From contig OZ241993.1 in the NCBI GenBank assembly GCA_965204575.1, positions 1,184,001 through 1,248,000 of the forward strand: a DNA stretch of 64,000 bases. The letters are read 5' to 3'. The translations under genes and the position numbers were made by a program. Below are positions 57,222 through 60,121 of the stretch, one piece after another. The stretch comes from an uncultured candidatus Porisulfidus sp. (GTDB lineage Bacteria > Pseudomonadota > Gammaproteobacteria > Poriferisulfidales > Poriferisulfidaceae). How positions within the stretch are numbered: the first letter of the stretch is position 1; the number at the start of each line of letters is the position of its first letter. The notes below the pieces were generated by a model. The model was not told where the DNA came from. It worked only from the letters and a program-made list of their open reading frames with translations, and searched no databases.

Positions 57222-57521
57222 TCAGCCGAGCAGCACGCCGATGAAGAAGGTGGTCAGGTAGATGACGATCAGGCCCAGCATGGAAAGCAGGCACAACAGG
57301 GTCACCAGGTGATGCGGGCGTCGGTGACCGACCAGGACGCCGGCAACCGCGACGGCGAACGAGGCCAATCCCAAGCTTTGCATGCAGCCCGTCTGGCAGC
57401 TGCGTGCCTCGAAAGGCCCTCCCAGCATGTTGAAGACCAATGCCACGGTCAGGCTCCAACTGACGGCCGTGGCCAGCACGGTCCAGGGCGAGATGGCGGT
57501 GTAGTAGCGGGAGGCGATCAT
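57222..57521 (-). CDS. Small membrane protein (about 3 TM)
   Basis: 99-aa hydrophobic ORF with CxxxC in a loop. Confidence 0.55.
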   Translation of the reverse strand: MIASRYYTAISPWTVLATAVSWSLTVALVFNMLGGPFEARSCQTGCMQSLGLASFAVAVAGVLVGHRRPHHLVTLLCLLSMLGLIVIYLTTFFIGVLLG

Positions 57522-57539
57522 GCAGTCATTCTATAACTT

Positions 57540-57923
57540 TCACGAGGGCGAGAAGACCCCCAAGAGGCTGGCCGCGACACCGATGACGAGCGGAATATAC
57601 CAGTAAAGCTTCTTGAATTCGGCCTGCATGTCGGAGCGCAGATCCTTGATTTCGCCCTGCAGGCGAAGTTCCATCTTGCCCATATCCACCCGTATGCCAG
57701 ACTCCATCTTCTGCATATCGGTCCGTATGCCGGATTCCATCTTCTTCATATCGGCCCGTATGCTGGACTCCATTTCCTCCATATCGGTCCGCAGGACATA
57801 TTCCATTTTTTCCATGTCGCTTTTCGTGGCCAAGTGGCGCTGGGCGTCATCAATGGCCTCAACCATGGCTCCGGCCTGATCTTCGCTGAAAGTAGCAGCT
57901 TGCAGAGACTTCATGACCCTGAG
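57540..57923 (-). pseudogene. 3' part of a DUF1640/CCDC90-like coiled-coil membrane protein gene, interrupted by the IS1111 element
   Basis: KSL.AA.FSE.QA.A, LATK.D, 11-aa repeats and a C-terminal TM. Joins in frame to 59322-59402 when the IS is removed (HFDK|LRVMKSL). Confidence 0.8.
57669..57819. repeat. 33-bp coding tandem repeat, about 4.5 copies
   Basis: Units (t/c)tccatc...catatcggtccgtatgccgga at 57669, 57702, 57735, 57768 and 57801, encoding R.DM.KMES.I. Confidence 0.9.
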
Positions 57924-58012
57924 TGATGGGATGGTTCGCCCCACTTCCTAAATCAGCCTTGGGCGGACACAATGAGGTTACCACTAACCATTGCGAAAGC
58001 AGGACGAACCCT

Positions 58013-59059
58013 ATGAAAGCTACTATACCTGACTCCCGGATCGCTTATTTGGGCATTGATCTGGCCAAGCATGTCTTTTACGCGTGCGGCATGACCGAGG
58101 CGGGCCGGGTGGTGCTGGAGAAGCGATTTACGCGCGCCCGACTGGAAAGGTTTACGGAGCAGTTGCCGCCGTGCCGGGTCGGGCTGGAGGCCTGCGGCAG
58201 CGCGCACCACTGGGCGCGCCGGCTGATCGGGCAAGGGCACGATGCCCGGCTGATCTCGCCGCACTTCGTCGCGCCCTTCGTGAAGTCGAACAAGAATGAT
58301 GCGCGGGACGCGGAGGCGATCTGCGAGGCGGTCAGCCGGCCGACGATGCGCTTCGTCCCGGTGCGGTCGGAGTCGGAACAGGCGATCCAGCACTGGCACC
58401 GGGCGCGGCAGCGGGTGGTGCGGAGCCGCACCCGCCTGGTCAACCAGTTGCGGGCGTTCCTGTACGAATACGGACAGGTACTCCCGCAGGGCGTCAAGGC
58501 GTTCCGGCGTCGGGTTCCGGAGCTTCTGGAAGACGGCGAGAACGGCCTGCTGCCGGAGGTTCGCGAGATGTTGGCGGACGGTTACGAGGAGTTGCTGGGG
58601 CTGGATGCGCGGGAGGAGCAATACCGCGCCCGGATCCAGGTGCATGCGGCTTCAGAGGAAGCCTGCGAGCGGCTGATGGCGATCCCGGGAGTCGGGGTGC
58701 TATGCGCCAGCGCTCTGGTCATGAAGTTCCGGGACGGGGGCGACTTCCGAAACGGTCGAGAGGCGGCGGCCAGTGTCGGCCTGGTGCCGCGGCAGCACAG
58801 TACGGGCGGACAGGTCCGGCTGGGCGGCATCAGCAAGCGGGGAGACCGGTATCTGCGCACTCTGATGATCCAAGGTGCCAGCTCGGTCGTGCGGCTGGCG
58901 GAACGGAAAGAGGACGGCCGCAGCCGTTGGGCCTCTGACGTGAAGCGGCGTCGCCATCGCAATATCGCGGTGGTGGCACTGGCCAACAAGAACATCCGCA
59001 TCGCCTGGGCTCTGCTCAGGAGCGGCGAAGCTTATCGGGAGGAAGTCTCTATGGCCTGA
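58013..59059 (+). CDS. IS110/IS1111 DEDD transposase (bridge recombinase)
   Basis: GIDLAK, LEACG, KNDARDA.AI (RuvC DEDD), IPGVG, GLVPRQHSTGG (catalytic Ser), GDRYLR. AGGA RBS before ATG 58013. Confidence 0.96.
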   Translation: MKATIPDSRIAYLGIDLAKHVFYACGMTEAGRVVLEKRFTRARLERFTEQLPPCRVGLEACGSAHHWARRLIGQGHDARLISPHFVAPFVKSNKNDARDAEAICEAVSRPTMRFVPVRSESEQAIQHWHRARQRVVRSRTRLVNQLRAFLYEYGQVLPQGVKAFRRRVPELLEDGENGLLPEVREMLADGYEELLGLDAREEQYRARIQVHAASEEACERLMAIPGVGVLCASALVMKFRDGGDFRNGREAAASVGLVPRQHSTGGQVRLGGISKRGDRYLRTLMIQGASSVVRLAERKEDGRSRWASDVKRRRHRNIAVVALANKNIRIAWALLRSGEAYREEVSMA

Positions 59060-59094
59060 GGCTTCCCCCTGAATCCCGGCGGCCACTGGCTGCC

Positions 59095-59274
59095 GATCGG
59101 TTGCAGGGAAGAAGCAGAACATGGCGAAACAGGTCGGACCGACGCGTCGGGAACCTGGTTGATAAACAGGCCTTCGAGGTCATCTCAGTGATGAGGCCGG
59201 CGCGTGCGGAACCCATGGGGGCCCGGGAGCTACGTTCTCCCGTCAAGAGGCCGGATATATGTTCGCACCCGATC
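59095..59274 (+). ncRNA. Putative bridge RNA / seekRNA of the IS1111 element
   Basis: Two stem-internal-loop modules with loop segments matching the target (TTGATAAAC) and the donor junction (ATATATG, CCCAT). Exact RNA ends unknown. Confidence 0.75.
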
Positions 59275-59321
59275 GATCGTCAAGGATGCTTCCCACTTGC
59301 AGGGAGGGGGCGAACCATATA

Positions 59322-59402
59322 TTTATCAAAATGTGGGGTATGAGGCGCCTCCGGTCTGTTCGCGCCGGGGGTGGCAACGGGCTCTTGAGTGCTGGATTTC
59401 AA
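59322..59402 (-). pseudogene. 5' fragment (27 codons) of the IS-interrupted DUF1640-like gene
   Basis: AAGGAG RBS 8 nt before TTG 59402; reads (M)KSSTQEPVATPGANRPEAPHTPHFDK up to the IS end. Confidence 0.65.
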
Positions 59403-59503
59403 GGACGTCTCTCCTTGACGAATAGATAGTGGGAGGAATTGCCCTGTTGAGAACATTCCTCGGGTTGGGAGGGATGGTCCAGAAGAAAGTTGGAAAGGCA
59501 AGG

Positions 59504-59556
59504 AAAAATGGTCTGAATTTTTAGACCATTTTTACTTATTGAAAATCAATAGGTTA
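59504..59556. promoter_or_regulatory. Palindromic operator-like site plus IHF consensus site
   Basis: AAAAATGGTCT-N8-AGACCATTTTT at 59504-59533; AATCAATAGGTTA at 59544-59556 fits WATCAANNNNTTR. Confidence 0.5.
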
Positions 59557-59710
59557 TGGATCGTTCCGGATACCGCTCTCGGTCAAATTTGTTCAAATTT
59601 TCAACATTGTCATGGATGCGGGCATGGAGGGAGTTCCGGCCTTTGGCACTGTCATGTTCGCTTCCGACAGTCGCGGGGTATGATGGGCGAAAGAGGAGAA
59701 ATTACGTCAC

Positions 59711-60121
59711 GTGTTCCGTTCCGCAATCGAAGCCGAAGACGCTTTCTACGAAGCATTCGCCCAGCAGGACGTCGAGGCCATGATGCAGGTGTGGGCGGAG
59801 GGCCGCCCGGTTTTCTGCATTCACCCAGGAGGTGATCTGCTGACCGGCCGGGAGGAAGTGGAGGAGAGCTGGAAACAGATCTTTGGGGCAGAGGTGCCAT
59901 TCCATTTCGAGCTGGAATACCACTATCGCGAGGAATTCGACGGGCAATTCGCCATCAGCCAGTTAACGGAAACCCTGTACCTGCGCCACCATGTCGTCGG
60001 CATCGTGCTGGCGACCAACGTCTATTGCGGCACGGACGAAGGCTGGCGAATGATCATGCACCATGCTTCGCCGCCGCCCGGTCCGGACGCACCGGAGTCC
60101 GGGGTGCCCGTCCTGCACTAA
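59711..60121 (+). CDS. SnoaL-like / NTF2 family protein
   Basis: AFYEAF...D..AM..VW, CIHPGG..L.G, ATNVY, W.M..HHAS. Confidence 0.85.
   Translation: MFRSAIEAEDAFYEAFAQQDVEAMMQVWAEGRPVFCIHPGGDLLTGREEVEESWKQIFGAEVPFHFELEYHYREEFDGQFAISQLTETLYLRHHVVGIVLATNVYCGTDEGWRMIMHHASPPPGPDAPESGVPVLH

What the first reader, a model, noticed from the sequence alone, without database searches (positions are those of the whole stretch)
59095..59274. RNA-guided IS1111 element: the non-coding end carries guide loops matching its own target and donor junction
Seen in sequence: removing 57924-59321 reconstructs the target ...GACCCTGAG|TTTATCAA. In the 3' non-coding region, a stem (acgcgtcgg 59142-59150 / ccggcgcgt 59197-59205) encloses an internal loop. 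One loop strand, TTGATAAAC (59159-59167), is the exact 9-nt bottom strand of G|TTTATCAA. The other, ATCTCAGT (59182-59189), is a 5/8 match to the top strand CCCTGAG|T. A ggcct-tcg-aggtc hairpin separates them. A second module (tgcgga 59205-59210 / ttcgca 59262-59267, inner hairpin cgggag/ctcccg) carries CCCAT (59212-59216) and ATATATG (59255-59261). These match the bottom and top strands of the circularised junction CCATATA|TGATGGG. Established: IS110/IS1111 recombinases use a bridge/seekRNA with separate target- and donor-binding loops. Inference: this is a naturally programmed bridge recombinase with predicted ideal target ATCTCAG|TTTATCAA, here inserted at a mismatched site.
Basis: partly seen in the sequence, partly recalled or inferred. 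Interest (0 to 1): 0.85.

Follow-up and report, generated by a model that had tools for sequence, protein, structure and literature searches.

The report
Natural bridge RNA in IS1111 element
This is a 1.4-kb jumping gene of an already known RNA-guided kind, whose own small RNA carries short stretches matching both the place where it landed and its own two ends; it is a clean new example of a known mechanism, not a new one.

Summary
Window 57924-59321 is an intact IS1111-group (IS110 family) insertion sequence. It has a DEDD transposase gene, a perfect 12-bp subterminal inverted repeat and a 262-nt 3' non-coding end. Positions 59114-59270 of that end encode a structured RNA with two internal loops.

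- **Target loop.** It matches the insertion site 9/9 on the right. On the left it matches 5/6 in the window copy and 6/6 in the second genomic copy.
- **Donor loop.** It matches the element's own right end, the shared crossover base and the left end.
- **Empty sites.** Two same-genus genomes show the uninterrupted target with a single shared T.
- **Relatives.** Stems co-vary in 23 sequences (95.6% paired against 77.7% in shuffles). Across 32 distinct guide pairs the loops track their own flanks: 7.2/9 and 5.2/8 against 3.4 and 2.3 for other elements' flanks. The crossover base (T, C, A or G) agrees at four places in 31 of 32.
- **Known members.** The same model finds the RNA in IS4321, where the guides match its flanks.

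The inner pairs of his second closing stem are not conserved.

Bridge/seek RNAs of IS1111 elements were described in 2024, so this is a new member of a known kind. RNA expression and binding were not testable here.

The parts
57919..57923 (+). Left target half (CTGAG) next to the element. It is read by the 3' strand of the target loop, matching 4 of these 5 bases plus the core.
   Evidence: empty sites
57924..57924 (+). Shared crossover ('core') base T, left copy. The empty site has a single T.
57924..59321 (+). The whole insertion sequence, 1398 bp counting one copy of the core T. There are two copies in the genome that differ at one base.
57925..57930 (+). Left terminal extension GATGGG. Bases 2-6 (ATGGG) are complementary to the donor-loop 5' strand CCCAT.
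57931..57942 (+). Left subterminal inverted repeat ATGGTTCGCCCC.
   Evidence: perfect reverse complement of 59307-59318
58013..59059 (+). Transposase/recombinase gene, 348 aa. It has a DEDD (RuvC-like) N-terminal domain, a Transposase_20 C-terminal domain and a GLVPRQHSTG motif.
59114..59270 (+). Bridge/seek RNA gene, taken as the extent of the covariance-model match (134.3 bits).
59132..59140 (+). Small conserved 5' hairpin, GGT-CGG-ACC.
   Evidence: helix 1
59142..59150 (+). 5' arm of the stem that closes the target-binding module. It pairs with 59197-59205.
   Evidence: helices 2-3: 7 of 8 pairs with compensatory changes
59159..59167 (+). Target loop, 5' strand TTGATAAAC. It is complementary to the top strand G-T-TTATCAA, that is base -1, the core and the right target half.
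59168..59181 (+). Hairpin separating the two target-loop strands.
   Evidence: helix 5
59184..59189 (+). Target loop, 3' strand, effective guide CTCAGT. It is identical to the top strand of the left target half plus the core, and so would pair with the bottom strand. 59182-59183 (AT) lie in the loop but do not behave as guide.
59197..59205 (+). 3' arm of the target-module stem.
59212..59216 (+). Donor loop, 5' strand CCCAT. It is complementary to ATGGG of the left end.
59220..59252 (+). Stem GGCC/GGCC with the inner hairpin CGGGAG/CTCCCG, inside the donor module.
   Evidence: helices 7, 8; all 4 pairs of helix 8 have compensatory changes
59255..59261 (+). Donor loop, 3' strand ATATATG. It equals the last 5 bases of the right end, the core T and the first base of the left end.
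59297..59302 (+). TTGCAG, a -35-like hexamer. After circularisation it would lie 17 nt upstream of a -10-like TATGAT formed across the junction (inferred junction promoter).
   Evidence: by analogy with the Pjunc promoter described in passages of PMC12288879
59307..59318 (+). Right subterminal inverted repeat GGGGCGAACCAT, followed by the 3-base extension ATA (59319-59321).
59322..59329 (+). Right copy of the core T (59322) and the right target half TTATCAA (59323-59329).

Best explanation
Window 57924-59321 is an apparently intact IS1111-group insertion sequence. It moves by RNA-guided site-specific recombination.

Its 3' non-coding end encodes an RNA of about 157 nt (59114-59270) with two internal loops.

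- **Target loop.** The 5' strand (59159-59167) pairs with the top strand of the target from base -1 through the right half. The 3' strand (effective guide 59184-59189) has the sequence of the left half plus the crossover base, so it pairs with the bottom strand.
- **Donor loop.** CCCAT pairs with the left end of the element. ATATATG has the sequence of the right end, the crossover base and the first left-end base.

The DEDD recombinase bound to this RNA would bring the circular junction of the excised element together with a site reading CTCAG-T-TTATCAA. It would exchange strands at the single shared T. A promoter assembled across the circle junction (TTGCAG, 17 nt, TATGAT) would drive the transposase and, downstream of it, the RNA.

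Shown here: the anatomy, the two insertion sites, the empty sites, the structural co-variation, and the co-variation of both loops with flanks and ends. Inferred from experiments on relatives (ISEc11, ISPa11, ISKpn4, IS621): that the RNA is made, binds the protein and directs recombination, and that a circle forms.
For: **Protein.** Pfam finds DEDD_Tnp_IS110 and Transposase_20. NCBIfam NF033542, 'IS110 family RNA-guided transposase', scores 338.8 bits against a cut-off of 140.

**Element and sites.** There is a perfect 12-bp subterminal inverted repeat. The genome holds two copies differing at 1 of 1398 bases, both in G-T-TTATCAA sites. Empty sites with a single T occur in G401 and G408.

**Structure.** In 23 distinct relatives' RNAs, 27 pairs are 95.6% paired against 77.7% in shuffles (0 of 500 reach it). 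Controls with the partner slid by 1-3 columns give 28-47%. 15 pairs carry compensatory changes.

**Model search.**
- The covariance model hits the window at 134.3 bits.
- It also hits elements not in its seed: L009, L018, L021, L022, L023, L027, L034 and a second IS family of this genome.
- It hits IS4321 at 80.4 bits and a Klebsiella plasmid element at 102 bits.
- The guides of those two match their own flanks 9/9 (one base off register in IS4321) and 9/9 plus 8/8.

**Guides against flanks.** The set is 53 unique element/site rows in 32 guide pairs.
- Right guide: own mean 7.2/9 against 3.4 in 1628 cross pairings. 8 or more is reached in 28 of 53 own rows against 0.4% of cross pairings.
- Left guide: own mean 5.2/8 against 2.3.
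- Combined score of 11 or more of 15: 28 of 32 families against 0.55% of cross pairings.

**Core and donor loop.** The core base agrees at the left junction, the right junction, the last base of the left guide and the 6th base of the donor 3' strand in 31 of 32 (T 21, C 6, A 3, G 1). The donor 3' strand follows right-end variants ATA, ACA, AGA, GTA and CTA in all 28 distinct cases plus the Klebsiella element.

**Variation among copies.** In the same-genus genome G400, 9 of 17 loop columns vary among 6 copies against 77 of 1384 elsewhere.

**Order of guides.** The top-strand-complementary guide lies 5' of the bottom-strand-complementary one. Siddiquee et al. report the same order for IS1111 seekRNAs (PMC11187229, section 9 read).
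Against: - There is no direct evidence of the RNA, of a circle or of activity. No RNA run is listed for this DNA, and contigs of three DNA runs show only the two inserted copies.
- No sigma-70-like promoter was found inside the linear element, so the source of the first transcripts is unknown.
- The window copy has one mismatch to the left guide.
- The donor 5' strand has G where pairing with the first left-end base would need C. The G400 relatives do have C.
- The register of the right guide relative to the core differs by 0, 1 or 2 bases between families (16, 10 and 4 of 30). Several sites need a 1-nt bulge.
- The left guide never matches beyond 6-7 of 8.
- Related elements are not independent, so the shuffle and Fisher figures overstate significance.
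- G.U cells (22) outnumber A.C cells (9) only modestly as evidence for the strand.
Confidence: 0.9

Rival explanations
1. Only the first module (the target loop, about 59121-59206) is a working guide RNA. The second module is not an RNA guide for the donor. Its likeness to the ends would reflect a DNA-level role, for example an alternative internal 'pseudo-end' or a processing signal.
For: Siddiquee et al. found that the short 82-nt seekRNA of ISEc11 sufficed for movement, and they left the role of the long form open (PMC11187229, sections 10 and 14 read). In G051, two copies (L060, L062) are followed on the right by the sequence that follows the donor 3' strand inside the element. This is as if recombination had used that stretch as DNA (not followed up). 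The closing stem of the second module is short and its inner pairs are not conserved.
Against: Both strands of the second loop co-vary with the ends. The 3' strand follows the right-end variant and the core in 28 of 28. The 5' strand follows left-end variants (GATGTG, ATAGT, AATGAT, ATGGA, ATGAG). The two strands sit in an internal loop between stems with compensatory changes (helices 7 and 8). Durrant et al. describe donor-binding loops in IS1111-group bridge RNAs (PMC11208160, passages read).
Confidence: 0.06
2. The conserved non-coding end works as DNA, not RNA. It would be a structured or protein-bound DNA site whose short matches to target and ends serve synapsis directly.
For: All evidence is from DNA sequence.
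Against: Compensatory changes keep Watson-Crick and G.U pairs on the + strand: 22 G.U cells against 9 A.C cells. [quoted passage not shown]
Confidence: 0.02
3. The matches between loops and flanks are chance, or an artefact of wrongly drawn element ends, with the target sequence really being part of the element.
For: For this one sequence, a 9-mer match to a 24-nt target arises in about 1.2% of shuffles. The right flank is the same 9 bases in both copies, which could have meant that it belongs to the element.
Against: Empty sites in G401 and G408 carry the right flank without the element. Relatives with different flanks have correspondingly different loops. Cross pairings score far lower.
Confidence: 0.01

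Closest known systems
seekRNA / bridge RNA of IS1111-group elements (ISEc11, ISPa11, ISKpn4, ISPst6; Siddiquee et al. 2024, PMC11187229; Durrant et al. 2024, PMC11208160)
   Same: - A DEDD transposase of about 340 aa with a GL-P----(S/T)G motif.
- Subterminal inverted repeats.
- A long non-coding region downstream of the gene that encodes the RNA.
- The top-strand-complementary guide lies 5' of the bottom-strand-complementary guide, and the two overlap at the insertion point.
- A long form of about 150 nt; here the model match is 157 nt.
- A promoter formed only by joining the ends.
- Natural re-direction among relatives through changes in the loops.
   Different: - The sequence is distant: the best plasmid-borne relatives are at most 52% identical in protein, and the best same-genus relative is 67%.
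- The target, CTCAG-T-TTATCAA, is different and in both copies lies just upstream of a gene start.
- No experiment exists for this element.
- I could not see the published figures or supplements, so a base-by-base comparison of loop geometry with ISEc11 was not made.
[quoted passage not shown]
   Same: - The same RNA family by covariance model (80.4 bits).
- The same end architecture: a 6-base left extension plus core, a 12-bp subterminal repeat and a 3-base right extension plus core.
- The right guide matches its flank 9/9.
- The donor 3' strand matches its AGA right extension plus the core T.
   Different: - 41% protein identity.
- The right extension is AGA rather than ATA.
- The right guide is one base out of register compared with the window element.
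IS621 bridge RNA (IS110 group; Durrant et al. 2024; structures 8wt6 and others)
   Same: - One RNA with a target-binding and a donor-binding internal loop, each reading both DNA strands.
- A recombinase with a RuvC-like DEDD domain and a C-terminal domain carrying the S/T-G motif.
- A crossover at a short core shared by donor and target.
   Different: - In IS621 the RNA lies upstream of the gene in the left end, and the order of the guide strands is reversed (PMC11187229 abstract).
- IS621 has only a 2-3-bp subterminal repeat (PMC11208160 passage).
- Its core is a CT dinucleotide (recalled), whereas here a single shared base is seen.
- Only the C-terminal 120 residues align by sequence (E 4e-5).

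Membership tests
IS110 family, IS1111 group (insertion sequence) | DEDD (RuvC-like) transposase with the C-terminal Transposase_20 domain. | tested here: met
   PF01548 at 2.5e-19 over residues 13-153 and PF02371 at 2.1e-20 over residues 218-296. NF033542 scores 338.8 bits against a cut-off of 140.
IS110 family, IS1111 group (insertion sequence) | GL-P----S/T-G motif in the C-terminal domain. | tested here: met
   GLVPRQHSTG is present. Its T aligns with the S of IS621 GLTPRRYESG. The motif is as given in PMC11187229, section 6.
IS110 family, IS1111 group (insertion sequence) | Subterminal inverted repeats of 7-17 bp with short terminal extensions. | tested here: met
   A perfect 12 bp, 57931-57942 with 59307-59318. 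The extensions are 6 and 3 bases plus the shared base. The length range is from a PMC11208160 passage.
IS110 family, IS1111 group (insertion sequence) | The longer non-coding region lies downstream of the transposase gene. | tested here: met
   262 nt downstream (59060-59321) against 89 nt upstream (57924-58012).
IS110 family, IS1111 group (insertion sequence) | Site-specific, orientation-specific insertion without a multi-base target duplication. | tested here: met
   Both of the 2 copies sit in the same 9-13-nt site in the same orientation. The empty sites show a single shared T.
IS110 family, IS1111 group (insertion sequence) | A circular intermediate with a junction promoter. | tested here: inconclusive
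   In sequence, a -35-like TTGCAG lies 17 nt from a -10-like TATGAT that exists only across the joined ends. The same layout holds in 32 of 32 distinct relatives' ends: 23 in exact register and 9 shifted by one base. No circle junction was seen in the contigs of 3 runs, which cannot show rare forms.
Bridge RNA / seekRNA | [quoted passage not shown] | tested here: met
   9/9 with 5/6 in the window copy and 9/9 with 6/6 in the second copy. Across 32 guide pairs the loops score far above cross pairings with other elements' flanks. Stems co-vary.
Bridge RNA / seekRNA | A second loop matching the donor, that is both ends of the element across the circle junction. | tested here: met
   ATATATG equals the right end, the core and the first left-end base. 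CCCAT is complementary to left-end bases 2-6. The right-end and core positions agree in 28 of 28 distinct relatives.
Bridge RNA / seekRNA | IS1111-type order: the top-strand-complementary guide lies 5' of the bottom-strand-complementary guide. | tested here: met
   59159-59167 lies 5' of 59184-59189. The criterion is from PMC11187229, section 9.
Bridge RNA / seekRNA | The RNA is transcribed, processed and bound by the transposase, and is needed for movement. | not testable with these tools
   No RNA run is listed for this DNA. No promoter or terminator was found in the linear element by a simple scan.
Rfam family | A match to a curated RNA family at its gathering score. | tested here: not met
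   No Rfam 15 family matches 57500-59800 inside the element, even at E up to 1. That search found no curated model matching this RNA.

The most novel reading that the evidence does not exclude
In this genus the two guide strands of the bridge RNA turn over far faster than the rest of the element. At least 11 different guide pairs ride on one scaffold in five genomes. Copies that differ at about 2% of positions elsewhere differ at 7-9 of 17 loop positions. All four bases serve as the single crossover base within the wider family, and the spacing between left and right recognition shifts by 0-2 bases. The bold reading is that guide replacement is not just mutation plus selection. It would be an active or templated process, for example copying from a mismatched target during recombination or repair, and this subfamily tolerates any core base and bulged targets.
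Probability: 0.12. Interest if true: 0.6.

Novelty: new member of a known kind. Interest (0 to 1): 0.3.

Why it matters
It confirms that a reader of raw sequence can recognise a natural bridge/seek RNA and predict its target. It also adds a well-defined, apparently intact IS1111-group element with two verified sites and matching empty sites.

The comparative set assembled here may be useful to people engineering bridge recombinases.

- A covariance model for this subfamily's RNA.
- 32 guide pairs with their natural sites, showing which loop positions actually track the target: 9 on the right, and 5 plus the core on the left.
- A single crossover base that can be any of the four nucleotides.
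- Many naturally re-aimed RNAs on one scaffold within one genus.

None of this changes the known mechanism.

Tried and rejected
- **Rfam**. Nothing matched inside the element. A weak MIR8562 hit (23 bits against a gathering score of 211) lies outside it and is chance.
- **Single-sequence fold**. It is only mildly better than shuffles, so it is not used as evidence on its own.
- **Ungapped extension to find element ends**. It gave inconsistent ends. I replaced it with MAFFT of the copies and with a subterminal-repeat finder.
- **First regular expression for same-genus copies**. It printed nothing because one spacer length was wrong. It was corrected, and even then only 10 hits in 9 of the 14 loci fitted the pattern. 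The rest were recovered with the model.
- **Rows dropped before the counts**, out of 64 model matches:
  - 6 without detectable ends: the second hit in L039, L045, L030, L023, L009 and L003.
  - L004, whose only repeat call was 9 nt with a mismatch and gave an implausible length.
  - L020 and L022, whose flanks are cut by contig ends.
  - 2 exact duplicates.
  - This leaves 53 rows.
- **Sources without a model match.** 3 of the 42 sources (L011, L017, L029) gave none. By the coordinates, their contigs end at the 3' end of the gene, so the non-coding end is not in hand.
Rejected as guide positions.
Not conserved.
- **Unoccupied sites in the genome.** None has one mismatch or fewer to the 13-nt predicted target, and 17 have two mismatches.
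- **Expression.** No RNA holder is listed.
- **Laying contigs of three runs**. This showed only the element node joined to the flanks of both copies. There was no circle junction and no empty site, and contigs cannot show rare forms.
- **Promoter and terminator scan of the linear element.** None found.
- **Supplements and figures.** I could not see the supplementary files or figures of the cited papers. A base-level comparison with the published ISEc11, ISPa11 and ISKpn4 RNA drawings, and with any published list of IS1111 bridge RNAs (for example Supplementary Table 5 of Durrant et al.), could show that this subfamily's RNA has already been modelled.

Full report
**What is there.** Window 57924-59321 is a discrete 1398-bp element.
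- It carries one long ORF, 58013-59059 on the + strand, 348 aa from the first ATG.
- The protein has the two Pfam domains of IS110-family transposases, DEDD_Tnp_IS110 and Transposase_20.
- It passes NCBI's equivalog model NF033542, 'IS110 family RNA-guided transposase', at 338.8 bits against a cut-off of 140.
- By sequence alone, only its C-terminal 120 residues align with the solved IS621 and ISCro4 recombinases (E about 4e-5).
- In that alignment GLVPRQHSTG lies over IS621's GLTPRRYESG. This is the GL-P----S/T-G motif that Siddiquee et al. give for IS1111 transposases (PMC11187229, section 6 read).
- That the aligned serine is the IS621 nucleophile is recalled, not taken from a call.
- The element has a perfect 12-bp subterminal inverted repeat, 57931-57942 with 59307-59318. 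A 6-base extension lies on the left and a 3-base extension on the right.
- The non-coding region is 89 nt upstream and 262 nt downstream of the gene. These are the features that set the IS1111 group apart from the IS110 group (PMC11208160 passages; PMC11187229 section 6).

**Checking the observation.** The genome (1.82 Mb, one contig) holds a second copy that differs at one base.
- The second copy's flanks are ...GACTCAG | element | TTTATCAAAT....
- The window copy's flanks are ...CCCTGAG | element | TTTATCAAAA...
- Two same-genus genomes have the window's locus without the element. They read ...GACCCTGAG[T]TTATCAAAATG..., with the left and right BLAST pieces meeting on one and the same T.
- So the ends are right, the right flank is not part of the element, and target and donor share exactly one base.
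- On its own, the 9-mer match between the non-coding end and the target is not overwhelming: 59 of 5000 shuffles reach it. The single-sequence fold is only z = -2.15.

**Is it a structured RNA?** I collected relatives of the protein from 400 sampled genomes of the same class. 63 of the 400 scored genomes have a match at E <= 1e-40, the window's own genome included.
- I aligned 23 distinct downstream regions, leaving out loci from two unpublished genomes.
- RNAalifold and a pair count give 27 pairs in 8 helices.
- 95.6% of cells are paired, against 77.7% when partners are shuffled (0 of 500 shuffles reach it) and 28-47% when partners are slid by 1-3 columns.
- 15 pairs carry compensatory changes. 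The stem that closes the first module has 6 of 7 pairs with changes on both sides.
- A covariance model built from this alignment scores the window at 59114-59270 with 134.3 bits.
- It also finds the RNA in elements that were not in its seed. These include a second, 44%-identical IS family of the same genome.
- It finds the RNA in IS4321 (80.4 bits), in a Klebsiella plasmid element (102 bits) and in an ISShdy1-family element (41.4 bits).
- G.U cells (22) outnumber A.C cells (9), which mildly favours an RNA of the + strand.

**Do the loops read the target and the ends?** For every model match I took the loop strands by alignment column. I found the element's ends independently of the loops, from the subterminal repeat with fixed offsets. 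After the drops listed under Tried and rejected, 53 unique element/site rows in 32 distinct guide pairs remain.
- The reverse complement of the 5' loop strand matches the element's own site (base -1, core, right half) at a mean of 7.2 of 9. Against the sites of elements with other guides the mean is 3.4 (1628 pairings). Offsets of 0-2 were allowed in both comparisons.
- 28 of 53 own rows reach 8 or more, against 0.4% of cross pairings.
- The 3' loop strand matches the left half plus core at 5.2 of 8 against 2.3.
- Position by position, its first two bases match at 0.11 and 0.13 and the other six at 0.58-0.97. The working left guide is therefore six bases, five of flank plus the core. All nine positions of the right guide match at 0.62-0.96.
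- Per guide pair, a combined score of 11 or more of 15 is reached by 28 of 32, against 0.55% of cross pairings.
- The crossover base is T in 21 guide pairs, C in 6, A in 3 and G in 1. In 31 of 32 the same base stands at the left junction, the right junction, the last position of the left guide and the sixth position of the donor 3' strand.
- The donor 3' strand follows the right-end variants ATA, ACA, AGA and GTA in 28 of 28 distinct cases, and CTA in the Klebsiella element.
- The donor 5' strand follows left-end variants such as GATGTG, ATAGT, AATGAT, ATGGA and ATGAG.
- For the window element the scores are 9/9 and 5/6. For the second copy they are 9/9 and 6/6.
- For IS4321 the right guide matches its flank 9/9. 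That flank is a sequence I recall as the terminal repeat of Tn21-family transposons. The title of Partridge & Hall 2003, seen in reference lists, names that target.

**Within the genus.** One same-genus genome (G400) has at least seven copies of a 67%-identical relative. Six full-length copies were aligned.
- 9 of the 17 loop columns vary, against 77 of 1384 other columns (odds ratio 19). The copies are kin, so the p-value of 1e-7 is only indicative.
- With four further genomes I count at least 11 different guide pairs on this scaffold. Most flanks fit: 9/9 in L040 and L087, 8/9 in L008 and L077, and 6/6 on the left in L078.
- Some sites fit poorly or need a 1-nt bulge: L038, L039, L089 and L090.
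- Natural re-direction of this kind has been reported for ISEc11 against ISXne4 (PMC11187229, section 10 read).

**How it most likely works.** By analogy with the experiments on ISEc11, ISPa11, ISKpn4 and IS621, the element excises as a circle.
- Joining the ends creates a promoter. Here a TTGCAG sits 25 nt before the right end, followed by a 17-nt spacer and a TATGAT made of TA from the right end, the core T and GAT from the left end.
- The same layout holds in 32 of 32 distinct relatives' ends, 23 in exact register and 9 shifted by one base.
- Such junction promoters are described for this family in passages of PMC12288879. I saw the ISEc11 paper of Prosseda et al. only as a reference entry.
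- Transcription from that promoter would run through the transposase gene into the RNA.
- The RNA-protein complex would then pair the target loop with CTCAG-T-TTATCAA and the donor loop with the joined ends, and exchange strands at the shared T.
- No promoter was found in the linear element, so how the first protein and RNA are made is open.
- No site with one mismatch or fewer remains free in this genome, which fits the low copy number.
- In the window the element sits 9 nt upstream of the ATG (57914-57912, minus strand) of a small gene. It therefore separates that gene from whatever lies upstream.

**What is not shown.** No RNA, circle or activity has been seen for this element. Three further points remain open.
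- The register of the right guide differs between families.
- The donor 5' strand of the window element has one mismatch to the first left-end base.
- The role of the second module as an RNA guide rests on co-variation. It is questioned by the published finding that a short RNA sufficed for ISEc11.

**Verdict.** The mechanism, its location in IS1111 elements, the order of the guides, the junction promoter and natural reprogramming are all in print since 2024. NCBI's own family name calls the protein RNA-guided. This is a new member of a known kind, and a useful worked example rather than a discovery.

Noticed in passing
own genome, G000:C1:24306-25542 (+) and 713462-714698 (-); loci L003/L004, L054/L055: A second IS110-family element, 44% identical in protein, is present in two copies. 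It has its own downstream RNA, matched by model R1 at 68.2 bits. Its ends and target were not defined: the only repeat call was 9 nt with a mismatch.
   Followed up: partly
window 59493-59558, within the AT-rich hairpin 59471-59567: A stretch of about 40-65 nt just right of the element recurs at 80-97% identity. Six places in this genome are listed (for example C1:994220, 995230, 315811, 1748598, 220625 and 221837), and more in most of the same-genus genomes searched. It forms a hairpin, and the only Rfam hit is a chance microRNA match. It may be a short dispersed repeat or a regulatory or terminator element.
   Followed up: no
L039 (G400:C1:1413038-1417078): One copy of the relative is inserted next to a truncated second copy. 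There are two model hits 650 nt apart, and the right flank reads like the C-terminal part of a transposase gene.
   Followed up: no
L060 and L062 (G051:C1:127653-131633 and 1680190-1684170): In two copies of a relative, the sequence right of the element equals the sequence that follows the donor 3' strand inside the element's own RNA gene. It is as if that stretch had served as a recombination site, or the 3' end is partly duplicated.
   Followed up: no
window 57540-57914 (minus strand): The gene just left of the element encodes a 125-aa protein with about 11-residue repeats (DM..ME..IR) and a hydrophobic C-terminus. The element sits 9 nt upstream of its ATG. In the second copy, and by eye in several relatives, the element also lies just upstream of a minus-strand gene start.
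   Followed up: no
L064-L068 (G164): Five copies of a relative with a G core sit in sites where the right-guide match (ACCGCCAT) lies 1-2 bases further from the core in different copies. The flanks look like ribosome-binding-site and start-codon regions (GGAG ... CCATG).
   Followed up: no
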